A DNA stretch of 49,648 nt from an uncultured Candidatus Saccharibacteria bacterium (GCA_964636435.1 CAZWRS010000005.1:1-49648), one strand, 5' to 3'; numbered from the stretch's first letter, positions 6,010-39,681 are shown. Numbers and translations: made by a program. Notes: generated by a model not told the origin, from the letters alone.

Positions 6010-6291
6010 TTAATCTTTTGCCCAGGCCGGCTTTGTGTTCGTGTAACCAAAATAGTAGAGCTTAGAATCATCCCCGGCATCATAAATCCCGCAGAATAGG
6101 TCGCTCAGAAATACCCTGTATGTAATATCATCTTTGATCTTCTTGTAGTATTTATCAAAATTTATCTTGTAGCTGGATACCTGATGATGGTGCTTGCCGA
6201 AGCACTCATAAGAATTAGCAAATAGTTCCCGTAATTGCCTACCGGTTAGGTATTTTTCCTCGTAGCCAGCATAAACAGCTCTTTTCTCCAT
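6010..6291 (-). CDS. Small hypothetical protein (about 93 aa)
   Basis: Tyr/Lys-rich ORF. The ATG at 6291 lies 6 nt after TATAAT (6303-6298), so it is preferred over the 6351 start. Confidence 0.6.
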   Translation of the reverse strand: MEKRAVYAGYEEKYLTGRQLRELFANSYECFGKHHHQVSSYKINFDKYYKKIKDDITYRVFLSDLFCGIYDAGDDSKLYYFGYTNTKPAWAKD

Positions 6292-6309
6292 ATATACATT
6301 ATAGCCAAG

Positions 6310-6406
6310 TGGGTCTGGTACCAGACCCGTATGCTCAATAATTCGAGTCACGTTTGGTGTCGCATGAGTCCGGACACATGGGTCTGGTCCTAGACCTATA
6401 TGCTCA
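6310..6406. repeat. Two 28-bp imperfect direct repeats with an internal palindrome
   Basis: TGGGTCTGGTACCAGACCCGTATGCTCA (6310-6337) and TGGGTCTGGTCCTAGACCTATATGCTCA (6379-6406) match at 24/28 positions. 6311-6328 is a perfect 18-bp palindrome. Confidence 0.8.
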
Positions 6407-10199: not shown

Positions 10200-11360
10200 A
10201 TGCGTAAAAAATCCCCGCCCCCTCAAGAACCGCTGCCAAAAAATTATCACGCTATTACCACGTCATCTTACCAGCCAGCTGCTCGCAAAACCGCGAAACC
10301 AAAGAAGCAAAAACTCAAGAAAAAACGCTCGGTATGGAAACGCATGCTGCTGTTGATTCTTGCCATATGTCTTGGTTTGATACTCACCATTATCGCTTGG
10401 GACATACGTAATTTTTCAAATGCCAGCCAAAAGCTATTTGGTACCGACAACGCCTGGGAAGTGCTGCGGACACAACCGCTTAAAAGAGCTCCGAACGGAC
10501 GGACAAATATCCTGCTCGTGGGCTACTCTATTGATGCACCCGGCCATGGTGGTGCTGATCTGACCGACTCGATACTCATCGTCAGCCTTGATCAGACTAA
10601 ACAGTCTGGCTTTATGTTGAGCGTACCACGCGATCTCTACGTCGATATTCCGGGCTATGGCACCGCCAGGATAAACGAGGCACACCAGGCAGGTGAAGCC
10701 CTCGATTTCCGAGAAAGCGGGCGGCCGCGCGGTGGCATGGGCTTGTTACAAAAAGTTATCAGTGAGACGTTTGATATTGAACTGCACTACTACGCACTCA
10801 TAAACTTCACTTCCGTCAAGGAGATTGTCGATGCGCTCGGCAGCATTGACGTCACCATCAATAATGAAGATCCACGCGGCATTTATGATCCTGCTTTTCC
10901 ACCCGAACAGGGCGGCCCGCTCAAACTTGCAAACGGCACCCATACGATTGACGGCCAGACTGCTCTCCGATTGACCAGGGCACGCGGTGCCTCCTATGGC
11001 TCATACGGATTCCCCCGTTCCGACCATAACCGCACCCAACACCAGCAACAAGTATTTATGGCAATCAAACACAAACTGGACTGGAAACTGGTACTCGATC
11101 CGAGAACAAATGGAAAAATCTTTGATGCTGCTGGCGACAATATTAAAACAGACCTGACAATCGGTGAAGTCATCCCGTTTTATCGACTTCTGACGAACGT
11201 ACCTAACGGTGACCTCAAACCCATATCGCTCAGTGACATCAACAAGCAAAATCTACTCACCGGCATTACGACGCCAAGCGGCCAGCAGGTACTTATACCC
11301 CGAGCTGGCATGGCCGATTACTCCGAGATTCAAGCTACCGTCAAGCAGCTCAGCCGATAG
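10200..11360 (+). CDS. LCP (LytR-CpsA-Psr) family cell-wall polymer ligase
   Basis: TM anchor, then NILLVG, TDSILIVS, SVPRDLYV, RINEA, ALRLTRAR and SDHNRTQHQQ motifs. Confidence 0.92.
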   Translation: MRKKSPPPQEPLPKNYHAITTSSYQPAARKTAKPKKQKLKKKRSVWKRMLLLILAICLGLILTIIAWDIRNFSNASQKLFGTDNAWEVLRTQPLKRAPNGRTNILLVGYSIDAPGHGGADLTDSILIVSLDQTKQSGFMLSVPRDLYVDIPGYGTARINEAHQAGEALDFRESGRPRGGMGLLQKVISETFDIELHYYALINFTSVKEIVDALGSIDVTINNEDPRGIYDPAFPPEQGGPLKLANGTHTIDGQTALRLTRARGASYGSYGFPRSDHNRTQHQQQVFMAIKHKLDWKLVLDPRTNGKIFDAAGDNIKTDLTIGEVIPFYRLLTNVPNGDLKPISLSDINKQNLLTGITTPSGQQVLIPRAGMADYSEIQATVKQLSR

Positions 11361-11376
11361 TTTTCAGCTGATACCT

Positions 11377-11688
11377 TCATGTCTCCTCCGATTCATCTGG
11401 CGGATGATAATCGGCCACGGTCGCATCAGTGGGGTCTAAGTTTGCTGCCGGCAGATCAAGTGCTGCCTGATCAATACCCTCATCATATGCTTCGTGTTCA
11501 TCAATATTACTTTTGCTGTCATGTAGCTGATGCGTGTCAGGAAACTCATCCACTGCATCCCGTGGCTCAGAAAATGGCTTCGCACTATCTTGCGGTTGCT
11601 GCTGATCTTTCTGAATTGCCTTATGTGTTTCGTAATCTTCATCACCATGGTCTGGGTATGGCACGAAGCCATCATCTTGCTGTGTCAT
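11377..11688 (-). CDS. Small acidic, probably disordered hypothetical protein
   Basis: 103-aa Asp/Glu-rich ORF starting 11 nt after the LLM stop. Confidence 0.65.
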   Translation of the reverse strand: MTQQDDGFVPYPDHGDEDYETHKAIQKDQQQPQDSAKPFSEPRDAVDEFPDTHQLHDSKSNIDEHEAYDEGIDQAALDLPAANLDPTDATVADYHPPDESEET

Positions 11689-11699
11689 ATATCACCTCC

Positions 11700-12653
11700 T
11701 TATTGTGCGAGCTCTGCTTTGAGCTCGCTGCTCCACATATCCATGAACCCGCGATAATCCTTCCCCGGGTACGCCAGAGCCAGGTGTGTGATACCTGCTT
11801 CGAGATACTTCTGGGCTTTTTGTATATGCACACCCGCATCAGGCCCGGCGTCTGCTTGCATGTCCTCTGGCTTGATCATGCTTGTTGCGGCTGCAAAATT
11901 AACTGGGTTCGGCAACTCAGCTTGAACTTTCCAGCCAGCTACCGAAAATCGGAAATTGTCATATAGCTCCTGGGCAGCCTTTTGCTTATTGTCGCCCCAG
12001 GCCAGGACAACTTGCGCCCAGACAGCCTGCTCCTCGCCCCCATTCTTAACATAAGTATTGACCATATTCTTATCGGCATCCGATACACATATACCGTCAG
12101 CCTTGGCAGCTGCCAGTCTGGTAGATGACGGCCCGCTCGCCGCCACAAAAATAGATAACGGATCTTTCGGAAGGTCAAATACTTTGGCGTCCTCGACGCT
12201 AAAGTAACTTCCTTCATATGACACGTACTTGCCGCTCCACAGCGCCTGCATGATATCAATCGCCTCTGCTAACATAGCATGACGAATATGTACCGCTGGC
12301 CAGCCGGCCCCGACAACGTGCTCGTTCAATCGCTCGCCCGCGCCAAGCCCCAGCGTAAACCTGCCCCCACTCAGCACGCCTACGGTAGCCGCCATCTGCG
12401 CGACAATTACCGGATGATAACGGACAATCGGGCAGGTCACCATGGTAGCCAGCTCTATAGTCTTAGTTGCTTGGGCGACGGCGCCCAGTACACTCCAGGC
12501 GAAAGCCGAATGCTGCTGTTCGGGCAACCACGGATGGTAGTGATCGGAAATGGCCAAGAAATCGAAACCAGCCTCTTCGGCCATAATCGCTTGCTCCACC
12601 AGACTGCGCGGATCATTCCCTTCACAGTACAACGTATAGCCAATCTTGGTCAT
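11700..12653 (-). CDS. LLM-class F420-dependent oxidoreductase (G6PDH-like, TIGR03557-type)
   Basis: AEEAGFDFLAISDHYHPW, WSVLGAVAQAT, VTCPIVRYHP, GLGAGERLNEH and ELPNPVNF motifs; GGAG SD upstream of the ATG at 12653. Confidence 0.85.
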   Translation of the reverse strand: MTKIGYTLYCEGNDPRSLVEQAIMAEEAGFDFLAISDHYHPWLPEQQHSAFAWSVLGAVAQATKTIELATMVTCPIVRYHPVIVAQMAATVGVLSGGRFTLGLGAGERLNEHVVGAGWPAVHIRHAMLAEAIDIMQALWSGKYVSYEGSYFSVEDAKVFDLPKDPLSIFVAASGPSSTRLAAAKADGICVSDADKNMVNTYVKNGGEEQAVWAQVVLAWGDNKQKAAQELYDNFRFSVAGWKVQAELPNPVNFAAATSMIKPEDMQADAGPDAGVHIQKAQKYLEAGITHLALAYPGKDYRGFMDMWSSELKAELAQ

Positions 12654-12708
12654 GTCCAGACTCCCGTAGTTACCACTCTCATTATCGAGGTTCATGCAGC
12701 TGACGAGC

Positions 12709-12724
12709 AGTAAGATATCACACA
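12709..12724 (-). promoter_or_regulatory. Degenerate Crp-type box upstream of the LLM gene
   Basis: Minus-strand TGTGT-GATATC-TTACT, with GATAAT at 12686-12681; box centre at about -42.5. Confidence 0.45.
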
Positions 12725-12735
12725 GGTGCTGCGCG

Positions 12736-12984
12736 CTACTTCAAGTCCGGATCAATTTTGGCCGCCTGCTCCCTCGCTGATAGGTAGATCTTATGAATCG
12801 CACGTTTCGCTTCTTGCAGCCCTGTGTCTGCCCATTCAAAAGCGAATGACAGGATAAAAAACGCCAACAGGCTCACTAGTACACCTGGACCGGGTAGCGG
12901 CACGAGTACGATTCCCAGTGCTAGTAACGGGAATCCTATGAGGCCTATGAGTAGTTTCCGCAATGCAGTTTTAGTCTTCTTCAT
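12736..12984 (-). CDS. PGPGW-domain small membrane protein
   Basis: LGIVLVPLPGPG motif within a hydrophobic hairpin. Confidence 0.8.
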   Translation of the reverse strand: MKKTKTALRKLLIGLIGFPLLALGIVLVPLPGPGVLVSLLAFFILSFAFEWADTGLQEAKRAIHKIYLSAREQAAKIDPDLK

Positions 12985-13049
12985 GGCGTCCTTTTTACGT
13001 CTTATCTGCTAAAGTTCCGAAAGTATAAACACAAATTCATGTGATGTGA

Positions 13050-13065
13050 TGTGAAAAACTTCACA
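13050..13065. promoter_or_regulatory. Consensus Crp box
   Basis: TGTGA-AAAACT-TCACA, a perfect TGTGA-N6-TCACA, between the divergent PGPGW and DUF2795 genes. Confidence 0.75.
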
Positions 13066-13123
13066 GTCGCGTCCGCCGATTTGCAGGATAGTAGGTGGGT
13101 AAATGCAAAAGGAGTGAGGCGCC

Positions 13124-13312
13124 ATGACACAAACCCAAACAGCAGAAGCCCAAAAATATATCATGAGTTTGGCGTACCCATGTACGCGCGATGAACTCGC
13201 CAATCATATGCGTGCGCAAGGCGCTGATGCACAGGTAGTGCGAGCTATTCGCCAGCTACCCTACGACTACTTCACTAGCCCCTATGCCGTGCGTGATGCA
13301 ATAAGTTCATAG
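13124..13312 (+). CDS. DUF2795-family small protein
   Basis: YPCTRDEL...A...GA...V...L..LP...F.S pattern; AAGGAG SD. Confidence 0.78.
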   Translation: MTQTQTAEAQKYIMSLAYPCTRDELANHMRAQGADAQVVRAIRQLPYDYFTSPYAVRDAISS

Positions 13313-13358
13313 ATACAGCCAATACTACTTCTTCCCGCCCTAGCTACCCTAAGAGCTC

Positions 13359-13374
13359 GGTGGCAATTCTTACA
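13359..13374 (+). promoter_or_regulatory. Degenerate Crp-type box
   Basis: GGTGG-CAATTC-TTACA, with TACAGT at 13396-13401; box centre at -41.5. Confidence 0.45.
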
Positions 13375-13426
13375 GACCGCTGACTTGCCTTGCACTACAG
13401 TAGGCAATGCAAGGGAGATACGTAGC

Positions 13427-13921
13427 ATGTCCAAGAATTCCTCCAGCTCCAGTGCCCAGGCTGACGAGGCCATGCAGGTACCTGGACAAATTCGCAAACA
13501 CAAAGCCATGGATGAATCAGCTATTGAGTTGACCCAGACTATACAGAGCTCTCACGAAGTGCTCATTAAGGCGTCAACTGTTTTTCCGTTCACGCTCTTT
13601 CCTGACACTGTCACATTAGACCGTGCGAAGCTTACTATTTCACACCGTGAATTCTTCAGAACGGGAGAGGTTATGAGTATCCGTATCGAAGATATTCTCA
13701 ATGTGACGGTCGATGTCGGGCCGTTTTTTGGCTCTCTGAAGATCTTTACCCGGTTCTTCAATGCCAACAAGCCGTATATGGTTAGCTTTCTACGACGCGA
13801 CGACGCCCTTAGAATTAAGCGCATTTTGCAGGGCTATATAATCGCGTTGCAGAAGAATATAGACTGCTCGACGCTTCCTACTAAAGAGCTGGCAGATATG
13901 CTTCATGAGCTAGGTAAATAG
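13427..13921 (+). CDS. Hypothetical protein (PH-like domain, inferred)
   Basis: AGGGAG SD before the ATG at 13427; FPFTLFPDTVTLDRAKLTI..R.FF...V.SI...DILNV..GPFFGSL pattern. Confidence 0.7.
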   Translation: MSKNSSSSSAQADEAMQVPGQIRKHKAMDESAIELTQTIQSSHEVLIKASTVFPFTLFPDTVTLDRAKLTISHREFFRTGEVMSIRIEDILNVTVDVGPFFGSLKIFTRFFNANKPYMVSFLRRDDALRIKRILQGYIIALQKNIDCSTLPTKELADMLHELGK

Positions 13922-14020
13922 ACCAGTAGCGTAACATTTTGTCATTTTTGTTCCCCTCATGAAGCATAAGTATGTTATCGTGAAAGTGCAGTAATAAATT
14001 AAATACAAACAAGAGAGCAA

Positions 14021-14590
14021 ATGCTCAAAAAAATCATTACCGAAACAACTGATGCGGTGGTCGCGGCCGTACAGGGCGTCGATGACATACTAGGAGCCAT
14101 AACCGGTACCGTTAAAAATCAGGTAGTAAATGCCCTGCAGGGTGTTGGTGAAGTCGGTAGCACAACTGTCGAGTCCGTTGCATCCGTTGCTGACGGTGCG
14201 ATTCGTGGCGCCGGCCAGGTTGGCACTTCCGTTACCGATACCGCCACCAATACTATGAGCGGCATCATTGGCGGCGTCACACAAGTTGGCGGTGACGTTA
14301 TTTCTGGTATCCGTGGCGGTGCACAAGGCATTGTGCAGGGCGTTGCTGAAACTGGCGGCGATGTCGGGGAAGCAGCGGTTGCAGCTGTACAAGGAGCCAT
14401 CAAGGCTGCCGGCGATACCGGCCAAGACACGACCGAAGCTGCCAAAGCAGCGGTTGGCGGGGCACTCGATGCAGCAACCAGCGTTGGCGGTGACGCAGCC
14501 TCAAAAGTGCGCGAAGCGCTCCTTTCGACCGCAGCCTTACCGCATGATGTAATCGAGTCAGCCATCAAAGGCCGCGACGACGAGCAATAA
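14021..14590 (+). CDS. Gly/Ala/Val/Thr-rich protein with 22-residue tandem repeats
   Basis: About seven consecutive 22-aa units, for example GIIGGVTQVGGDVISGIRGGAQ and GIVQGVAETGGDVGEAAVAAVQ. Confidence 0.8.
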   Translation: MLKKIITETTDAVVAAVQGVDDILGAITGTVKNQVVNALQGVGEVGSTTVESVASVADGAIRGAGQVGTSVTDTATNTMSGIIGGVTQVGGDVISGIRGGAQGIVQGVAETGGDVGEAAVAAVQGAIKAAGDTGQDTTEAAKAAVGGALDAATSVGGDAASKVREALLSTAALPHDVIESAIKGRDDEQ

Positions 14591-14611
14591 GTTTTACGCA
14601 CCTCACACTCT

Positions 14612-14649
14612 GTCACCTCATCATTTCGCTATGGTGAGGTGACTTTATT
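14612..14649 (+). terminator. Intrinsic terminator
   Basis: GTCACCTCA...TGAGGTGAC stem followed by TTTATT. Confidence 0.65.
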
Positions 14650-14682
14650 ATCTCTACAGTCTCGAGCCGGTATAATGTATAT

Positions 14683-16452
14683 ATGTTCTTCGTAAATACG
14701 CGTAAGCGATTAACTTCGAGTAACCTGTTTCTGCACTTGCTGCCCACCAGTGCCGTGCTCATCACCATACTCGGACTGACCTTTCTCGGCTGGCGCAATG
14801 CCGGTCAGGCCTTGGAGGATGAGCGAAGCGCAGCTGTTGAAAGTACCGTAAGTGAAACAAGCAACGATATCCTCGATCGCCTGGAGTCCTACCGACTCGT
14901 GTTATTCGGCGCAGCTGGGCTTTTTCTGTCGTCAGGTGATGTCTCGCGTGATGAGTGGAGTAAGTTTATCCAAAGCTTCAACCTCCAACATAACTATCCA
15001 GGCGTGCAGGGGCTCGGCTACATGACTAGTGGCCGTCGCAGCGAGCTACCGAAAATTATGCGCGATATTCACCGTGATGGCTTCGAAAATACGACGCTCC
15101 ATCCCACTGATCATACTGGCGAGTATGCTATCACGACATATTTCGTACCGCAGCATGAACCGGGGCTGGGTTATAACATGATTTCGCACCCTGGTCGCAA
15201 GGCAGCTATCGCTGCCGCTAGAGAATCGGGTACCGCAACCATCAGCGACAAGGTCATTTATACCAAAACCGAAATGCCGTTTAGTGGCACCGGGTTCTCG
15301 ATGTACTACCCAGTGGCAAGCTCTAACGAAGAATTGGACAAGGCGCCCACCGAGCGCAATATTCGGGGCTATGTGTTTGCGCCATTTTTGGCGGAAGGTT
15401 TTTTTGAAGCCGCCCTGCAGCACAATATCAGTAATGACTACGGGCTAAGAATCTACGACAACGGCCATGGTGATGAAAACTTGTTGTACCAAACCGCCAA
15501 CTTTGCCTCCCTGAATAACGATACAGCCATCCGGCACACCGAGACCATGGAGCTTTTCGGCCAAACCTGGATTCTCGAATATCTGTTTTCACCCGATATC
15601 GTTGATACTACATCACGCAACCGGCCGCTGGCCGCCCTGGTTGCCGGTATCATGCTAAGCCTTCTTTTATCGGGCTTTGTTCTCACCCTACTGATCACGC
15701 GAACCAGAGTATTGGCCCACAACAAGCAGCTTGAGGTGCAATCCGCGAAAGATGAGTTACTCTCCCTCGCGTCACACCAGCTGCGCACACCGGCCACGTC
15801 CGTTAAGCAGTATCTCGGCATGGTGCTCGAAGGCTTTGCTGGTAAGCTTAACAGCCAGCAATCAACGCTGCTCGATAAAGCCTATGAGAGCAATGAGCGG
15901 CAGCTTCATATCATCAACGAGATACTCTACGTAGCTAAAATTGATGCACAGGGTATTGTCTTGACACCACGGCAATTAAACATCAATAAACTCTTACGTG
16001 AACTGACCCAGGAGCTTTCCGTTTCTGCCAAAAAGAGTAATCAGAAAATTCGCTTGGTTATGCCTAAAAAACAAGTCTACATAGAAGCTGACGAACACAG
16101 TCTGAGGATGGCAATTGAAAACCTCATTAGTAACGCGCTCAAATACTCCGAAGAGGGCACTACGACGACCGTCAAGCTAACGACAAACAACGACGAGGTG
16201 CAGATAGCCGTAAAAGACAAGGGTATCGGCATCGATCCCCAGGATATGCCGCTACTGTTTCAACGGTTTTCACGGATCCCTAATGAACTGTCGCGGCAAA
16301 CAACTGGCAGCGGTATAGGCCTGTATCTCAGCCAACAGCTCGTCAAGCTACATAACGGCGATATCACGGTCGACTCTGCCAAGAACAAAGGTACGACATT
16401 TATTATTACATTACCGAAGACGCACAATCCGGCCGAACACCCGACTGACTAA
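14683..16452 (+). CDS. CHASE-domain sensor histidine kinase
   Basis: Two TMs flanking a CHASE-like region (YPGVQGLGY, GYVFAPF); H-box SHQLRTP; N-box NLISNALKYS; G1 DKGIGI; G2 GSGIGL. Confidence 0.92.
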   Translation: MFFVNTRKRLTSSNLFLHLLPTSAVLITILGLTFLGWRNAGQALEDERSAAVESTVSETSNDILDRLESYRLVLFGAAGLFLSSGDVSRDEWSKFIQSFNLQHNYPGVQGLGYMTSGRRSELPKIMRDIHRDGFENTTLHPTDHTGEYAITTYFVPQHEPGLGYNMISHPGRKAAIAAARESGTATISDKVIYTKTEMPFSGTGFSMYYPVASSNEELDKAPTERNIRGYVFAPFLAEGFFEAALQHNISNDYGLRIYDNGHGDENLLYQTANFASLNNDTAIRHTETMELFGQTWILEYLFSPDIVDTTSRNRPLAALVAGIMLSLLLSGFVLTLLITRTRVLAHNKQLEVQSAKDELLSLASHQLRTPATSVKQYLGMVLEGFAGKLNSQQSTLLDKAYESNERQLHIINEILYVAKIDAQGIVLTPRQLNINKLLRELTQELSVSAKKSNQKIRLVMPKKQVYIEADEHSLRMAIENLISNALKYSEEGTTTTVKLTTNNDEVQIAVKDKGIGIDPQDMPLLFQRFSRIPNELSRQTTGSGIGLYLSQQLVKLHNGDITVDSAKNKGTTFIITLPKTHNPAEHPTD

Positions 16453-16491
16453 AGCAGCACGTTCTGGACAGAGTGGGGTATAATGGAGTTG

Positions 16492-16869
16492 ATGGCAACA
16501 ATACTGATCGTAGAAGACGAACGAAATCTCAACGAAGCCTACCAGATGATACTGCAGCATCAGGGGCACGAAATCCTGGCCGCCTATGACGGCACAGAGG
16601 CACTAAAAATCACCGAGAAAGTAGAGCCGGATCTGATATTGTTGGATCTGCGTATGCCACAAATGGGCGGCGTGGAATTCTTGAAAAAGTATGATCTGAA
16701 AAAGCATCACCCCGATGTAAAGGTGGTGATATTCAGCAATCTCGATACCCAGCACGAGATTGATGAGGCTTATCGTCTAGGTGCTGAAAAGTATATGCTC
16801 AAAGCCTGGGCGTCTCCAAAAGAACTTATCCAGCTCGTGAACAGCCTACTCAAAACCAAAAAGAAGTAG
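16492..16869 (+). CDS. Single-domain response regulator (receiver only)
   Basis: MATILIVEDE, DLILLDLRMP, then YMLK. The track start at 16483 overlaps a TATAAT, so 16492 is preferred. Confidence 0.9.
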   Translation: MATILIVEDERNLNEAYQMILQHQGHEILAAYDGTEALKITEKVEPDLILLDLRMPQMGGVEFLKKYDLKKHHPDVKVVIFSNLDTQHEIDEAYRLGAEKYMLKAWASPKELIQLVNSLLKTKKK

Positions 16870-16892
16870 TCCCCTGAAAGAGGAAACGAATA

Positions 16893-17561
16893 TTATACGA
16901 ATGACAGGTCTTTGAAGTTGTCTTCGCCTATACTTTGGATCAGCTTATCGCGATCAATGATGTATTCACGGCCTTTATACTTCAAAACACCCTGCTTCTT
17001 TAGCTTGACGAGCTCAGCAGCCGTCGTTTCGCGTGTGAGGCCAATCAGGTCAGCCACCATTTGCTGGGTGAGCTGGATGTTCACCCGTACTACGCCAGGT
17101 CTGATTTCATCACCATATACCTGGACCAGATAATACAGCGTGTAGAGCACTTTGTCAGATGCTTTGGGCTGCTCCAGGGCCGTAATGCGCATGAGCGCAC
17201 CAGCATACTTGCTCAGGTAATGATTCGCGACTGTCTGCATGGCCACCGGACTTGAATTTATAAATTCATCAAACGCCTCACGTGATACGACATACATTTC
17301 ACCATCGGTCTGGGCTTCGTAGTAATAAAAGGCGGATGCGACCTTTTTAAACGACCAGGTCGTCGGAAACATATCACCGGAGCGCTTGAAGGCCGCGATA
17401 CGTTCGTCACCTTGGGCTGTGATATTGTACAATTTCACGATGCCTGATTTTATGAGGTACATGTTTCGCGGAACTTCGCCTTGGTACACCAAGATATTGC
17501 CCTGCCGGAACTTCTTGGTCATGAGCGTCTTTAGAAACGGCTGGAAAACTTCCTCTAGCAA
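16893..17561 (-). CDS. Crp/Fnr-family transcriptional regulator
   Basis: cNMP-like beta-roll (QGE...YLIKSGIVK), plus HTH LTQQMVADLIGLTRET. TTG at 17561 after a GGGGAG SD is the preferred start. Confidence 0.9.
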   Translation of the reverse strand: MLEEVFQPFLKTLMTKKFRQGNILVYQGEVPRNMYLIKSGIVKLYNITAQGDERIAAFKRSGDMFPTTWSFKKVASAFYYYEAQTDGEMYVVSREAFDEFINSSPVAMQTVANHYLSKYAGALMRITALEQPKASDKVLYTLYYLVQVYGDEIRPGVVRVNIQLTQQMVADLIGLTRETTAAELVKLKKQGVLKYKGREYIIDRDKLIQSIGEDNFKDLSFV

Positions 17562-17657
17562 ATGTTTCTCCCCTGTTCGCTTAGCGATACACCTATTGTA
17601 TAGCATTGAGAGTTTTCTGTCTGCTTTTAGAAAATCCGCGTGTAACGCGAGCATAAT

Positions 17658-17673
17658 TGTAATGAATCTTACA
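17658..17673. promoter_or_regulatory. Palindromic Crp-type box
   Basis: TGTAA-TGAATC-TTACA, with TACTAT at 17695-17700; box centre at -41.5. Confidence 0.7.
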
Positions 17674-17728
17674 GCTCGGGAGCAAATCGCTTTGTACTAT
17701 AGAGGCATCACTTAATAAGGAGGTTTGC

Positions 17729-17863
17729 ATGTTACTGTCAGAATCGGAACGAGATCGCAAGATAGACGACTTTTTAGCAAGGAAATTTCGACAGTTCGAC
17801 ATTGAGGATAATATGCCATCAGTCAGAGAAGTGCGATCATTCGGCGGCCTGCACAGCAAGTAG
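17729..17863 (+). CDS. 44-aa small protein (absent from the ORF track)
   Basis: AAGGAGG SD; MLLSESERDRKIDDFLARKFRQFDIEDNMPSVREVRSFGGLHSK*. Confidence 0.6.
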   Translation: MLLSESERDRKIDDFLARKFRQFDIEDNMPSVREVRSFGGLHSK

Positions 17864-17909
17864 CAACCTTATAACACACTATTAGTTAGCGACAAATATA
17901 TACCGGTAA

Positions 17910-18197
17910 ATGTTTATAGAAATTATTATCTGGCTCCTGCTTGGAGCTTTGAGCGGCTGGATTGGCTACCTGGCCAGCAGAACCCCAGAGAAAGGCCATA
18001 TCAGTATATTCCTGGGTATTGGCATGGTTGGTGGCGTAGTGGGTGGTGCAATCGCTGAACAAGCAGAACTCGCAGAAATTCCGGAATCTATCGATGCTGC
18101 TAGCAGTATCACTGCCTTATTCCTGTCAGCTGTCGTCGTCATCCTCTACAGCGTTATTGCCAGTATCATGAGAAAGCGTAGAACAAAGCGACGCTAA
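17910..18197 (+). CDS. GlsB/YeaQ/YmgE-like small membrane stress protein
   Basis: IIWLLLGALSGWIG...IFLGIGMVGGVVGG three-TM Gly-rich pattern. Confidence 0.7.
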   Translation: MFIEIIIWLLLGALSGWIGYLASRTPEKGHISIFLGIGMVGGVVGGAIAEQAELAEIPESIDAASSITALFLSAVVVILYSVIASIMRKRRTKRR

Positions 18198-18206
18198 GCC
18201 TTTTAC

Positions 18207-18476
18207 CTACTGACGCGCATCAACACGTATCGCAGCGGCTAGCTTGCGCTTGGCAAGTACGAGCTGCAGTGAAACAATCGTCAGCAATGCCAAGCCGAGT
18301 ACGCAGGACTTCAGTAAGTGCGCCCGGCTGTTCATTACCAGCATCGTGCCGGACCCAAGCATGGCGAGTGTGGCCAGGCGGGCCGCACGCAACACAATTT
18401 GAGATGGTCTGAAGTATGCCGCGCTGGCCAGGCTGAGACTAGCGAGCGCTGCCGTAACGTGAAGAGCTATTATCAT
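18207..18476 (-). CDS. Small three-TM hypothetical membrane protein
   Basis: Hydrophobic ORF; ATG 7 nt after TATACT (18489-18484). Confidence 0.65.
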   Translation of the reverse strand: MIIALHVTAALASLSLASAAYFRPSQIVLRAARLATLAMLGSGTMLVMNSRAHLLKSCVLGLALLTIVSLQLVLAKRKLAAAIRVDARQ

Positions 18477-18500
18477 AAGCACTAGTATACAGCACGTGCC

Positions 18501-19370
18501 TCACGGTAGCCAGGCGTTAATCGAGATGAGCAAGGAAAAGGCCAGCAGCACGATAAGTGAATGCCGGAAAATGCGCCGGGCCCATACCGCCGCATTGGCT
18601 GCCCTGAAGCCCTGCACGCCAAGCCAGAGCCAGTACAGGCACAGTGCAGCCATGGACACAAGGTAGACGTAACCAGCGTAACCGGCGAAAGCGAGCGACA
18701 GCGCCGCAGCCGCAAACGCCACGAGGTATACCATAATGTGCTTTTTCGTATGCTCCACGCCCCTTACGACCGTAATCACTGGTACGCCGGCCGCCTCATA
18801 CTCCTTACGCCGGTATACGGCAATCGAGTAAAACTCCGGCATCTGCCACAAAAAAAGAATCACGAACAAAATGACAGCCCCCAGGTCGATATCATTCGTG
18901 ACCGCCACGTAGCCCGCCAAAATGGGGGCAGCACCGGACACGCTACCAACCAGCGTGCCGTGAATTGATAAGCGCTTGGATAGCATCCCATACAGCACGA
19001 CGTACGTTATAAAACCAGCCAGCCCAATAGCGACGACTAACATGTTGACCCAAGCATATAAGATTGCTAGACCTAGGACACCGAGTACGATGGAGAATAT
19101 CACCGCACCACGCCCACTCACCTCGCCAGCGATCAACGGTCGTGTTTTGGTACGCTCCATCTTTTGGTCAATATCTTGGTCCAGGAAATTGTTAATCACA
19201 CAGGCTGATGCAATGACCAGTGTCGTGCCAATAAGCGTCGCTGCAAACAACTGCCAGTCGACCGACCCCTTGCTAGCCAACAGGAAGCCAGCCGCGGCCG
19301 TCAGCACGTTTCCGTACAAAACGCCCGGTTTGGTTAACCGATAATACGCGCTAATCGTTCCCTTGCTCAA
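18501..19370 (-). CDS. cyoE: Heme o synthase (protoheme IX farnesyltransferase)
   Basis: LTKPG, NNFLDQDIDQKMERTKTRPL and LWQMPEFYSIA motifs. Confidence 0.95.
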   Translation of the reverse strand: MSKGTISAYYRLTKPGVLYGNVLTAAAGFLLASKGSVDWQLFAATLIGTTLVIASACVINNFLDQDIDQKMERTKTRPLIAGEVSGRGAVIFSIVLGVLGLAILYAWVNMLVVAIGLAGFITYVVLYGMLSKRLSIHGTLVGSVSGAAPILAGYVAVTNDIDLGAVILFVILFLWQMPEFYSIAVYRRKEYEAAGVPVITVVRGVEHTKKHIMVYLVAFAAAALSLAFAGYAGYVYLVSMAALCLYWLWLGVQGFRAANAAVWARRIFRHSLIVLLAFSLLISINAWLP

Positions 19371-26910: not shown

Positions 26911-27261
26911 CTACGACGAATCTACACCCTCAGCCCTATCGCGTGGTGCACGTGGCCAGATAATTTTAGCTATGACATCATCGAAATCCAGCCAGCCGAA
27001 CTGGCGGCTATCGGAACTGTCGGCCTCATGATCACCAACGACATACAACTTCTTACCCCTGATAGCAGTAATGCGTTTTATCTTCTCTTTGCCATTATGG
27101 AAAAATATAACCACATCGCCCGGTTTCAGCCGCGCAAACCATCGCCAGCCATACACCAGCGTACCCGGTGGCAGAACCGGCAACATACTATGCCCACTAA
27201 TCTGACGGATAGTGACGGGCAGCTTACGACTTGGTCGCTTTGAAGATTTCGGCGATTTCAT
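26911..27261 (-). CDS. sodX: Ni-SOD maturation protease (S24/S26 family)
   Basis: GHSMLP (Ser), KIKRI (Lys), GD...SSDSRQFG; immediately downstream of sodN. Confidence 0.85.
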   Translation of the reverse strand: MKSPKSSKRPSRKLPVTIRQISGHSMLPVLPPGTLVYGWRWFARLKPGDVVIFFHNGKEKIKRITAIRGKKLYVVGDHEADSSDSRQFGWLDFDDVIAKIIWPRAPRDRAEGVDSS

Positions 27262-27613
27262 CGATCATCTCCAACAACTTCTGGCCCTCTTCGGGCTCCA
27301 AGTGATGCTTGCACTCACTCGCCTGCTTGATGGCTCGCCAGAATTTGTCATGCAGATCAGGATACTTTTCCAGATGCTCTGGCTTAAAGTAGTCTGCCCA
27401 CAGCACCATAAGGTGGTGCTTTACCAGCTCAGCACGCTCTTCTTTGATAATAATTGCCCGGGTTTTGTTATGGTCATCCAGCCCCGGATACTTATCCATG
27501 ATGGCCTTCACGCTCTCCGCCTCAATGCGTGCTTGCGCCGGATCATAGACGCCACAGGGCAAATCGCAGTGTGCATACACCGGCTTAATAAATCCCGAAA
27601 TTAGCTTAAACAT
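27224..27613 (-). CDS. sodN: Nickel superoxide dismutase precursor
   Basis: Ni-hook HCDLPCGVYDP after a 14-aa leader; KEERAELVKHHL..LW.DYFK; GAGGAGG SD. Confidence 0.96.
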   Translation of the reverse strand: MFKLISGFIKPVYAHCDLPCGVYDPAQARIEAESVKAIMDKYPGLDDHNKTRAIIIKEERAELVKHHLMVLWADYFKPEHLEKYPDLHDKFWRAIKQASECKHHLEPEEGQKLLEMIDEIAEIFKATKS

Positions 27614-27675
27614 AACCCCTCCTCAGTTACCTTTTCAGTATAGCAACTACCGCTGAATATTTTCTGTAATCGAAG

Positions 27676-28329
27676 TTACTTCTTTTGCGCGTCGGCTTGC
27701 TCACGGCGCCAGGCTTCAATGGCAGCGTGATTACCACTGAGGAGCACTTCGGGCACTTTCATGCCACGAAACTCCTCTGGCCGGGTGTATTGCGGAAACT
27801 CCAGGTTATCTCCGTGGCTAAAGCTCTCTATCTCAGCGCTCATTTCACCGCCGAGTACGCCGGGAATTAAACGGACTACCGCGTCCACTATCACCATAGC
27901 TGCCAGCTCTCCGCCTGTTAGCACATAGTCGCCGATACTAATTTGTCGATCCACCAGCGTCGTAATGCGTTCGTCGTACCCTTCGTACCGCCCGCAAATG
28001 ATAATCATACCCCTGTTTTCGCCAGCTATTTCTCGCGCCCGCTGCTGCGTAAACCTATCGCCACGTGGTGTCATGAGGTATACCAACGCGCCTGGGTCCT
28101 GCGCCTTGGCATGCTCGACAGCCGCAAATAACGGCTCAGGCTTCAGCAGCATACCGTCGCCGCCGCCATACGGGGTATCGTCAACTGTCTTGCGCGGTCC
28201 TAAGCCAAATTCACGCAAATTAACGTAGTCGTATTCAGCCAGCCCCTTGTCTTTCGCCTTCCAGAGCATGGATGTCTCCAGCACGGGCGCGAACATTTCT
28301 GGAAACAAGCTGATAATCTGTATTTTCAT
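27676..28329 (-). CDS. trmD: tRNA (guanine-N1)-methyltransferase
   Basis: [37 protein letters not shown] and LLSGNH motifs. Confidence 0.97.
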
Positions 28330-39227: not shown

Positions 39228-39303
39228 CCAGTGTGTCATTTTTCATTTCACCGGTCAGTACCTTAGTGCTACCCTACCCCTTACCGTAAGGAGGAGCCAT
39301 AGT

Positions 39304-39681
39304 ATGGCAAAACAGTATGATTTTTCCGGCATCTGGCACACTGTCTATGATTACACCAGTAGCGCTAGGCCGGGTCATTTCAAAAGTGAGTACGATGTCC
39401 GCATCCACAGTGTCGGCAACCAGGTTATTATGCAAAGCGTCCCGAATGATTATGGCGACTACATACTGCTGCGCCTCACCCAGCACGACAGAATCCTGAC
39501 CGGTACCTGGTTCGAGCAAACGTCACCGAAAGGCCCGTATAAAGGTGTAGCCTATTACGGCGCAATCCAACTCATTATCAGTGAGGACGGTAATAGTATG
39601 CAGGGTAAGTGGGTCGGCTTCGATCGACAAATGAATGTACGAAGCGACAACTGGCAGCTCACCCGCACCGATAAAAAATAA
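39304..39681 (+). CDS. Hypothetical beta-barrel protein
   Basis: TAAGGAGG SD (39287-39294); DFSGIWHTVY...LTGTW...GAIQL...M.GKWVG pattern. Confidence 0.72.
   Translation: MAKQYDFSGIWHTVYDYTSSARPGHFKSEYDVRIHSVGNQVIMQSVPNDYGDYILLRLTQHDRILTGTWFEQTSPKGPYKGVAYYGAIQLIISEDGNSMQGKWVGFDRQMNVRSDNWQLTRTDKK

What the first reader, a model, noticed from the sequence alone, without database searches (positions are those of the whole stretch)
12675..17730. Self-contained Crp-family regulon: four boxes at class II spacing drive a stress/dormancy-like gene cluster
Seen: TGTGA-N6-TCACA (13050-13065), TGTAA-N6-TTACA (17658-17673), GGTGG-N6-TTACA (13359-13374) and minus-strand TGTGT-N6-TTACT (12724-12709). Each is centred 41.5-42.5 bp from the TSS implied by a -10-like hexamer: GATAGT 13087-13092 (DUF2795), minus TATACT 13027-13022 (PGPGW), TACAGT 13396-13401, TACTAT 17695-17700 (44-aa sORF) and minus GATAAT 12686-12681 (LLM). 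A Crp/Fnr gene with an RET recognition helix is in the same cluster. Known: -41.5 is class II CRP/FNR activator geometry. Inference: a dedicated activator-controlled stress or life-stage programme (LLM, acidic protein, PGPGW, DUF2795, PH-like protein, sORF) in a lineage thought to have minimal regulation. This is the best candidate for an undescribed system in the window.
Basis: partly seen in the sequence, partly recalled or inferred. Interest (0 to 1): 0.82.

Follow-up and report, generated by a model that had tools for sequence, protein, structure and literature searches.

The report
Conserved Crp-type stress regulon in Saccharibacteria
Binding boxes for a CRP-like gene switch sit at a fixed activating distance in front of small stress-type genes in this tiny Saccharibacteria genome and its relatives; the switch is real and conserved, but it is a conventional kind of regulation and covers about 10-18 promoters genome-wide, not only this cluster.

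Summary
All four boxes and five -10-like hexamers are at the stated coordinates. The two perfect boxes (13050-13065, 17658-17673) are well above chance. TGTNA-N6-TNACA occurs 8-10 times in intergenic DNA against 1.15 expected. A -10-like hexamer peaks at exactly box start +37 (9 against 1.2). Both boxes are kept with invariant spacing in orthologous promoters, the 17658 box in 12 genomes of several families. Box 13359 keeps only its promoter-proximal half (CTTACAGAC) plus the -10 in five genomes, so it is probably real. Box 12709 is weak and poorly conserved; LLM is more likely co-transcribed with PGPGW.

"Self-contained" is wrong. The same promoter design drives at least eight more genes on other contigs: sORF2, a coiled-coil protein, an MS-channel-like protein, YGGT, PEBP, a YtxH-like protein and an amine-oxidase-like flavoprotein. 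A second Crp paralog lies on contig C19.

Crp1 lacks the cAMP-contact residues and has no cysteine, and the genome has no class III adenylate cyclase. It is therefore neither CRP proper nor FNR. The closest working parallels are the effector-independent stress regulators SdrP/DdrI and the NtcA promoter layout. Conserved synteny with a CHASE kinase, a receiver-only response regulator and a 44-aa sORF hints at a protein-based input.

Verdict: real; a new member of a known kind; moderate interest.

The parts
13050..13065 (.). Perfect Crp-type box TGTGAAAAACTTCACA, shared by the divergent DUF2795 and PGPGW promoters
   Evidence: PWM score 18.1 with a PWM trained on other genomes. Kept in G001, G003 and G002 (A2).
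13087..13092 (+). -10 hexamer GATAGT of the DUF2795 promoter, 21 nt after the box
   Evidence: Invariant GATAGTAG at the same spacing in 4 genomes. Neither a -35 nor a TGn element is present.
13022..13027 (-). -10 hexamer TATACT of the PGPGW promoter, 22 nt from the box
   Evidence: A -10-like hexamer lies 20-22 nt from the box in all 4 genomes.
13124..13312 (+). DUF2795 protein, 62 aa
   Evidence: Pfam PF11387, 6.5e-12.
12736..12984 (-). PGPGW membrane protein, 82 aa
   Evidence: Pfam PF09656, 1.8e-12.
12709..12724 (-). Weak box TGTGTGATATCTTACT (2 mismatches) between the PGPGW stop and LLM; doubtful
   Evidence: PWM 5.7. The ortholog in G003 has 3 mismatches. No terminator lies between PGPGW and LLM.
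11700..12653 (-). F420-type LLM oxidoreductase (true start ATG 12653), probably co-transcribed with PGPGW
   Evidence: TIGR03557, 8e-126. SD GGGAG precedes 12653, and the start is conserved in G003. The gene is absent from G001.
11377..11688 (-). Acidic 103-aa protein, 11 nt after LLM, same operon
   Evidence: no family hit.
13359..13374 (+). Half-site box GGTGGCAATTCTTACA; the proximal half TTACA(G) is conserved and the distal half is degenerate
   Evidence: CTTACAGAC is kept in 5 genomes of 2 genera (A2; A6). PWM 7.1.
13396..13401 (+). -10 hexamer TACAGT of the 164-aa gene promoter, 21 nt after the box
   Evidence: CTA(C/T)AGTAG is conserved at fixed spacing.
13427..13921 (+).
   Evidence: Orthologs in 10 of 41 relatives, linked to crp1 at 2.3-3.2 kb. 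AF2 pLDDT 50.
14021..14590 (+). 189-aa Gly/Ala-rich repeat protein with its own extended -10 promoter (TGtTATCGT, 13973-13981); not box-controlled
   Evidence: The -10 is conserved with G004 but the box region is not (A8). Terminator at 14612-14643.
14683..16452 (+). CHASE-domain histidine kinase with its own TATAAT (14663-14668), near-leaderless
   Evidence: Pfam CHASE, HisKA and HATPase_c; sequence.
16483..16869 (+). Receiver-only response regulator, convergent with crp1
   Evidence: Pfam Response_reg only. The same crp1/RR arrangement occurs in G001, G002, G005, G010, G011, G016 and G036.
16893..17561 (-). crp1, Crp/Fnr-family regulator, 222 aa from TTG 17561
   Evidence: cNMP_binding + HTH_Crp_2. 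Ortholog matches start at residues 18-31 of the long ORF. Aligned with E. coli CRP.
17595..17623 (-). crp1's own sigma-70-like promoter, CAGACA-17-TACAAT
   Evidence: Conserved in the family, but its distance to the box varies (gaps in A1).
17658..17673 (.). Perfect Crp-type box TGTAATGAATCTTACA
   Evidence: Top PWM hit in the genome, 20.8. The 8 specified positions are invariant in 12 genomes (A1).
17695..17700 (+). -10 hexamer TACTAT of the sORF1 promoter, 21 nt after the box
   Evidence: [T/C]AnnnT lies at ungapped, identical spacing in 12 genomes.
17729..17863 (+). sORF1, 44 aa, conserved partner of crp1
   Evidence: The motif E-x-(D/E)-R-(K/R)-I-x-D-F-L-x-R-K-F is kept with synonymous changes in 8 genomes.
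17910..18197 (+). 95-aa membrane protein downstream of sORF1; co-transcribed or with its own leaderless promoter
   Evidence: Weak Transgly_assoc hit. Ortholog at the same place in G001.

Best explanation
The boxes are operators of a Crp/Fnr-family activator. The activator is Crp1, encoded in the cluster, and possibly also its paralog Crp2, which has a near-identical recognition helix. The dimer binds TGTNA-N6-TNACA centred about 41.5 bp upstream of the start site. It replaces the missing -35 element and recruits RNA polymerase to a bare -10 hexamer, which is class II activation.

In this window it drives:
- sORF1;
- the divergent DUF2795 and PGPGW(-LLM-acidic protein) transcripts, from one shared box;
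- probably the 164-aa gene, through a conserved half-site.

The regulon is genome-wide, about 10-18 promoters. The targets are mostly small membrane, coiled-coil and redox proteins of the general-stress type. The regulon is conserved across several Saccharibacteria families.

The regulator cannot sense cAMP or oxygen in the canonical ways. Its input is unknown. The best candidates are its own abundance, as for SdrP, or the syntenic CHASE kinase and receiver-only RR.

Shown: the boxes, their enrichment, the fixed spacing, the conservation, the regulator's domain make-up and the missing ligand residues.
Inferred: binding, activation rather than repression, the start sites, and the stress role.
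For: (1) Enrichment. TGTNA-N6-TNACA occurs 8 times in intergenic DNA against 1.15 expected (P=2.7e-5), and 3 times in coding DNA against 7.9 expected.

(2) Independent PWM. A PWM built only from 11 boxes of other genomes ranks C5:17658, C1:977, C2:74946, C5:13050 and C19:6122 as the five best hits of the whole genome.

(3) Geometry. -10-like hexamers peak at box start +37, 9 against 1.2 per offset (P about 5e-6). For perfect boxes the count at offsets 36-38 is 8 against 1.0. For 1-mismatch boxes it is 35 against 17.8 (P=2e-4).

(4) Uniform layout. Start codons with an SD lie 67-81 nt from the box start. The PEBP gene starts 7 nt after its -10 in G000 and G001, as expected if the TSS is where inferred.

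(5) Footprints.
- Box 17658 and its -10 spacing are invariant in 12 genomes whose flanks average 43% column identity.
- Box 13050 and GATAGT are kept in 4 genomes.
- Orthologous promoters of the coiled-coil protein (G003, G006), the MS-channel-like protein (G001), PEBP (G001, G003) and sORF2 (G001, G005, G013) keep boxes.

(6) These promoters have neither a -35 nor a TGn element, whereas box-less neighbours have one: crp1, sodN, the 189-aa gene.

(7) Regulator. cNMP_binding + HTH_Crp_2, with R180-E181-T182 kept.

(8) -41.5 is the class II position for NtcA, CRP and FNR (PMC11850224).
Against: - No binding or expression data exist. No RNA run holds this organism, so the start sites are inferred only from -10-like hexamers.
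- A site over the -35 region could also be a repressor operator.
- Which paralog binds which box is unknown.
- Box 12709 is not supported: 3 mismatches in G003, and its remnant persists in G001, which has lost LLM.
- Two-mismatch and half-site boxes show no genome-wide enrichment.
- Site turnover is visible. The 125-aa gene at 39304 has lost the box that G001 and G003 keep.
- The motif count in relatives without a Crp homolog was not clearly lower than in those with one, though numbers were small.
Confidence: 0.8

Rival explanations
1. The boxes are repressor operators. Crp1/Crp2 sit over the -35 region and block RNA polymerase until a signal releases them.
For: A site spanning -49 to -34 overlaps the polymerase footprint. 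Crp/Fnr proteins can repress. No expression data are available.
Against: The target promoters have no -35 or extended -10 element to make them active on their own, unlike box-less promoters nearby. The box to -10 distance is fixed to within 1 bp over 12 genomes and about 15 promoters. Face-specific activation needs such precision; occlusion does not.
Confidence: 0.1
2. Only the two perfect palindromes are functional. Boxes 13359 and 12709 are chance look-alikes next to ordinary promoters, so the window holds two operators serving three promoters.
For: Two-mismatch boxes with a correctly placed -10 are no more frequent than chance, 230 against 214. Half-sites alone are not enriched, P=0.09. The proximal half of 12709 decays to TCGCT in G003.
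Against: The 13359 proximal half-site CTTACAGAC and its spacing to the -10 are kept in five genomes of two genera, while the surrounding DNA diverges. The crp2 promoter shows the same layout, a perfect proximal half, a degenerate distal half and N22 before TACAAT, in G000 and G001. PWM scores of 5.7 or more occur at only 5.6e-4 per intergenic position.
Confidence: 0.3
3. The palindromes are bound by a regulator other than the Crp paralogs, or are a lineage-specific promoter element read by the RNA polymerase or sigma factor itself.
For: No binding data exist. One exact match, C14:14810 TGTCAATATATTGACA before an NrdR-like gene, looks like an NrdR box. The pattern therefore also catches sites of other factors.
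Against: TGTGA-N6-TCACA is the signature of R-E-x recognition helices of this family, and both paralogs carry RETT. The most conserved box sits directly beside crp1 in 12 genomes, and a second sits beside crp2. The TTACA to -10 spacing of 21 nt does not fit a -35/-10 pair.
Confidence: 0.05

Closest known systems
E. coli CRP at class II promoters (e.g. galP1), including one dimer serving divergent promoters
   Same: 16-bp palindrome TGTGA-N6-TCACA. R-E-T recognition helix. Site centred at -41.5 in place of a -35 element.
   Different: About 19% identity. The cAMP contacts are absent: E72->T, R82-S83->A-F, T127-S128->A-L. R185->A. No class III adenylate cyclase in the genome. Position 4/13 of the box is free (A or G). 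Scores far below the CRP equivalog cut-off, 47.5 against 266 bits.
Cyanobacterial NtcA promoters (GTA-N8-TAC, -41.5) with the small co-activator PipX (PMC11850224)
   Same: The layout here, TGTA-N8-TACA then 22 nt then TAnnnT, has the same geometry as NtcA-activated promoters (the N22-TAN3T rule is from my own knowledge). A small protein gene (sORF1) is the conserved partner of the regulator.
   Different: Not an NtcA ortholog: 37.9 bits against a cut-off of 245. sORF1 (44 aa) has no detectable relation to PipX. No evidence for 2-oxoglutarate sensing or nitrogen genes among the targets.
Thermus thermophilus SdrP and Deinococcus radiodurans DdrI (effector-independent CRP-family stress regulators; PMC12040651, PMC11253593)
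   Same: CRP-family activators that do not use cAMP and control stress or stationary-phase genes. SdrP activity is thought to follow its own abundance.
   Different: No close sequence relationship was shown here. The targets differ. The conserved synteny with a CHASE kinase and a receiver-only RR is not a feature reported for SdrP or DdrI.
FixLJ-FixK cascade of rhizobia (PMC9104804)
   Same: A two-component system sits next to and upstream of a Crp/Fnr-family activator.
   Different: FixJ is a DNA-binding RR that transcribes fixK. Here the RR has no output domain, so it cannot act that way.
M. tuberculosis CRP and Cmr paralog pair (PMC5758884)
   Same: Two Crp paralogs with overlapping motifs. 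In M. tuberculosis, positions 4 and 13 discriminate between them.
   Different: Here orthologous boxes switch freely between A and G at position 4. Partition between Crp1 and Crp2 is therefore not evident.

Membership tests
Crp/Fnr superfamily regulator | N-terminal cNMP-binding-type beta-barrel plus C-terminal Crp-type HTH | tested here: met
   PF00027, 3.9e-15, and PF13545, 1.7e-11. PDB hits to FNR, DNR, CRP and NtcA over the full length.
Crp/Fnr superfamily regulator | Recognition helix with R-E-x that reads a TGTGA-type half-site | tested here: met
   R180, E181 and T182 are invariant in the alignment with E. coli CRP, Crp2 and the G016 ortholog.
Class II Crp/Fnr-dependent promoter | Palindromic site centred near -41.5 that replaces the -35 element | tested here: inconclusive
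   The box to -10 spacing of 21 +/- 1 nt is sharply enriched and conserved, and no -35 is present. The start sites are not mapped because no RNA data exist.
Class II Crp/Fnr-dependent promoter | The regulator binds the box and activates transcription | not testable with these tools
   Needs EMSA or DAP-seq and a reporter or in vitro transcription assay.
CRP proper (cAMP receptor protein) | cAMP contacts Glu72, Arg82-Ser83 and Thr127-Ser128 (PMC11253593) | tested here: not met
   T, A-F and A-L stand at the aligned positions in Crp1, and similar substitutions in Crp2 and the G016 ortholog. NF008732 scores 47.5 bits against a cut-off of 266.
CRP proper (cAMP receptor protein) | A cAMP source in the cell | tested here: not met
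   No PF00211 cyclase in the 98%-complete genome. Class I and class IV cyclases were not searched.
FNR | N-terminal cysteine cluster for a 4Fe-4S centre | tested here: not met
   The 222-aa Crp1 sequence contains no cysteine. NF008365 scores 50.5 bits against a cut-off of 228.
NtcA | Equivalog-level similarity | tested here: not met
   TIGR03697 scores 37.9 bits against a cut-off of 244.95.
SdrP/DdrI-type effector-independent CRP | DNA binding without any ligand; active-like apo structure | not testable with these tools
   Only the absence of cAMP-contact residues is shown.

The most novel reading that the evidence does not exclude
Crp1 is controlled by proteins rather than by a small ligand. 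The CHASE kinase would phosphorylate the receiver-only RR that is always encoded tail-to-tail with crp1. The RR, and/or the 44-aa sORF1 product that is Crp1's most conserved target and neighbour, would then bind Crp1 as co-activator or anti-activator. The effect would be PipX-like, but wired to a two-component sensor. That would be a new input mode for the Crp/Fnr family and a compact stress-signalling module of Saccharibacteria.
Probability: 0.12. Interest if true: 0.75.

Novelty: new member of a known kind. Interest (0 to 1): 0.42.

Why it matters
Saccharibacteria and other CPR bacteria have very few transcription factors, and almost nothing is known about how they regulate genes. I found no paper describing a Crp regulon in them. 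This locus gives a concrete, conserved regulon:
- a motif;
- a strict promoter grammar (box, 21 nt, then the -10);
- about 10-18 target promoters;
- two regulators.

The motif can be used to annotate promoters and start sites in uncultured relatives, and to pick stress-response markers for host-attached versus free cells. The mechanism itself is textbook class II activation, so the value is descriptive rather than conceptual. That would change if the kinase-RR-sORF link to Crp1 proves to be a real protein-based input.

Tried and rejected
- RNA evidence. Two run searches and one read-laying gave only DNA metagenomes (compost, bioreactor). Three metatranscriptomes held nothing of this organism, so start sites could not be mapped.
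- Half-site-only promoters. T[TC]ACAG with a -10 26 nt downstream is not significantly enriched, 8 against 4.6.
- Two-mismatch boxes are not enriched at the class II offset.
- Crp-less relatives as a negative control. Pattern counts against a reversed-pattern control were 16 to 8 in six genomes without Crp, and 194 to 96 over all 41 genomes. This is not discriminating.
- sodN as a regulon member. The 1-mismatch box is kept only in G001. Other genera keep only the extended -10.
- A box before the 189-aa gene. TGTCATTTTTGTTCCC is not conserved with G004.
- The C14:14810 palindrome was rejected as a Crp site. It has an NrdR-box-like core before an NrdR-like gene, and its -10 is at the wrong distance.
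- Autoregulation of crp1 through the 17658 box. The distance from the box to crp1's own promoter varies between genomes, so there is no phase-specific role.
- 'PH-like' fold of the 164-aa protein. The AF2 model (pLDDT 50) is too poor for a fold search.
- Rfam found no known RNA in 11000-19000.
The RR synteny was therefore checked by reading ORFs in loci already held.

Full report
**What is there.** The window is contig C5 of a 740-kb, 30-contig genome that is 98% complete. Close relatives are titled Candidatus Saccharibacteria, and DNA runs holding the stretch come from compost and bioreactor metagenomes.

The genes, as sources, are:
- acidic 103-aa protein (11377-11688, minus);
- F420-type LLM oxidoreductase (TIGR03557; true start ATG 12653, minus);
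- PGPGW (12736-12984, minus);
- DUF2795 (13124-13312, plus);
- a 164-aa protein with no family (13427-13921, plus);
- a 189-aa Gly/Ala repeat protein (14021-14590, plus);
- a CHASE histidine kinase (14683-16452, plus);
- a receiver-only response regulator (16483-16869, plus);
- crp1 (minus; true start TTG 17561 behind SD GGGGAG, 222 aa);
- sORF1 (17729-17863, plus);
- a 95-aa membrane protein (17910-18197, plus).

**Is it more than chance?** Genome-wide, TGTNA-N6-TNACA occurs 11 times. With crude gene calls, 8 hits are intergenic against 1.15 expected (P=2.7e-5), and 3 are coding against 7.9 expected. One of the three coding hits is box 13050, which the crude caller mis-assigned.

I built a PWM only from the boxes upstream of crp orthologs in 11 other genomes. 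It ranks C5:17658, C1:977, C2:74946, C5:13050 and C19:6122 as the five best hits of the whole genome.

For hits scoring 8 or more, -10-like hexamers (A2, T6, at least 4 of 6) peak sharply at box start +37. The count there is 9, against 1.2 per offset elsewhere (P about 5e-6). At offsets 36-38, perfect boxes give 8 against 1.0. One-mismatch boxes give 35 against 17.8 (P=2e-4). Two-mismatch boxes give 230 against 214, which is not significant. Statistics alone cannot validate the two 2-mismatch boxes.

**Conservation of the 17658 box.** A box lies upstream of crp in 12 genomes, from the same genus to other families of the order (26-87% protein identity). The eight specified positions are invariant, while the flanks average 43% column identity. 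The stretch from the box to a [T/C]AnnnT hexamer aligns without a single gap. Downstream, sORF1 is a real gene. Its motif E-x-(D/E)-R-(K/R)-I-x-D-F-L-x-R-K-F is kept in eight genomes with synonymous changes.

crp1 has its own sigma-70-like promoter, CAGACA-17-TACAAT at 17623-17595. That promoter is conserved, but its distance to the box varies between genomes. The box therefore serves sORF1, not crp1 in any phase-specific way.

**Conservation of the 13050, 13359 and 12709 boxes.**
- *13050.* The box is kept in the three other genomes of the genus, with GATAGTAG invariant on the DUF2795 side and a -10-like hexamer 20-22 nt away on the PGPGW side.
- *13359.* It keeps only its promoter-proximal half. 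CTTACAGAC and CTA(C/T)AGTAG stand at fixed spacing in five genomes of two genera, while the distal half is degenerate. I rate this box about 60% likely to be functional.
- *12709.* It is weak. The G003 ortholog reads TGTGTAATATCTCGCT, with 3 mismatches. G001 has lost LLM but keeps the remnant. No terminator separates PGPGW from LLM. LLM and the acidic protein are most simply read as the tail of the PGPGW transcript. I rate an independent Crp-dependent LLM promoter at about 20%.

**Not self-contained.** The same grammar recurs on other contigs: box, 21 +/- 1 nt, -10, then a start codon with SD 67-81 nt from the box start. The sites are:
- C19:6122, a 48-aa sORF2;
- C2:74946, a 117-aa coiled-coil protein;
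- C4:55109, a 250-aa MS_channel_1st_1 membrane protein;
- C4:57321, a YGGT protein;
- C2:17289, a PEBP protein;
- C10:8141, a YtxH-like acidic membrane protein;
- C10:5249, a small membrane protein that looks HdeD-like by eye (not scanned);
- C1:977, an amine-oxidase-type flavoprotein.

Orthologous promoters keep boxes for the MS-channel-like protein (G001), PEBP (G001, G003), the coiled-coil protein (G003, G006) and sORF2 (G001, G005, G013). The PEBP start codon lies 7 nt after its -10 in G000 and G001. This leaderless layout places the start site where the class II reading needs it.

A second paralog, crp2 (C19:6441-7166, 37% identical), lies tail-to-tail with sORF2. Its recognition helix is RETTGIE, against RETTAAE in Crp1. 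Its own promoter has TGATGGATATCTGACA-N22-TACAAT, and the same layout occurs in G001. This is a possible cascade or auto-activation.

**What is not in the regulon.** Inside the cluster, the kinase-RR operon has its own TATAAT, 14 nt before the start codon. The 189-aa gene has a conserved extended -10 and no conserved box.

**Mechanism.** The target promoters have a reasonable -10 but no -35 and no TGn. Box-less promoters nearby (crp1, sodN, the 189-aa gene) do have one of these. Together with the 1-bp precision of the spacing, this favours face-specific class II activation over repression. NtcA, CRP and FNR all act from -41.5 (PMC11850224).

The regulator is a distant superfamily member, below every curated subfamily cut-off. 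Aligned with E. coli CRP taken from NC_000913.3, it keeps R180-E181-T182. It replaces the cAMP contacts named in PMC11253593: E72->T, R82-S83->A-F, T127-S128->A-L. It has no cysteine, so an FNR-type cluster is excluded. The genome has no class III adenylate cyclase and one GGDEF protein.

In working terms it therefore resembles the effector-independent stress regulators SdrP and DdrI (PMC12040651, PMC11253593). The promoter layout equals the NtcA one.

One feature is striking. crp1 is followed tail-to-tail by the receiver-only RR in G001, G002, G005, G010, G011, G016 and G036, and the CHASE kinase follows the RR in all of these except G036. The spacing in G003 and G004 fits the same arrangement. 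This synteny, together with the constant sORF1 partner, suggests a protein-based input, by analogy with NtcA-PipX. That is the novel reading, and it is unproven.

**Function of the regulon.** The targets are small membrane, coiled-coil and redox proteins that recall general-stress regulons. 'Stress' is plausible. 'Dormancy' or 'life stage' has no evidence, and no RNA data exist.

**Novelty.** I found no paper on a Crp regulon in Saccharibacteria. Earlier notes of this scan report similar Crp class II boxes in other Saccharibacteria genomes. They are unchecked leads, but they agree that this is a recurrent and conventional unit. I file this as a new member of a known kind, of moderate interest.

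**Limits.** Gene calls for the statistics are my own crude ORF picks.

Noticed in passing
window 27665-27680 (minus), upstream of sodN 27227-27613: One-mismatch box AGTAACTTCGATTACA lies 22 nt before an extended -10 (TGcTATACT) of the Ni-SOD gene. The box is kept in G001 only; other genera keep just the extended -10. It may be a genus-specific addition to the regulon, or chance.
   Followed up: partly
window 39232-39247, upstream of the 125-aa gene 39304-39678: G001 and G003 have perfect boxes (TGTGACATACTTTACA, TGTAACATACTTTACA) with TACACT at class II spacing. In G001 the downstream gene was read and is the ortholog of this gene. Here the box has decayed to TGTGTCATTTTTCATT with TACCCT, an example of site turnover.
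   Followed up: partly
genome contig C19:6122-7400: A second module: box TGTGAGAAATATCACA, then the 48-aa sORF2 (6203-6349), tail-to-tail with crp2. The crp2 promoter carries a half-degenerate box, TGATGGATATCTGACA-N22-TACAAT, also seen in G001. G005 keeps sORF2 and its box but has no crp2 match.
   Followed up: partly
genome contig C14:14810-14825: The palindrome TGTCAATATATTGACA lies before an NrdR-like gene and is conserved in G003. Its core CAATATATTG resembles the NrdR box (my own knowledge), so it is not a Crp site although it matches TGTNA-N6-TNACA.
   Followed up: no
genome contig C2:17289-17340 and G001:C2:48737-48789: The PEBP-family gene is leaderless: its ATG lies 7 nt after the -10 hexamer in both genomes. 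In G003 the same gene starts 19 nt after the hexamer.
   Followed up: yes
window 14660-14685: The kinase-RR operon starts 14 nt after a perfect TATAAT (14663-14668; ATG 14683). The leader is therefore very short or absent.
   Followed up: no
genome contig C1:832-977 (minus): The amine-oxidase-type flavoprotein behind box C1:977 has its GxGxxG motif (VVVIGAGLAG) upstream of the first ATG/GTG/TTG in frame. Either it uses a rare start codon or there is a sequence error. The gene runs off the contig end.
   Followed up: no
window 11700-12653; L044 (G001): The F420-family LLM gene and the acidic protein are present in G000 and G003 but deleted in G001, which keeps about 160 nt of their upstream region next to the LCP gene.
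   Followed up: partly
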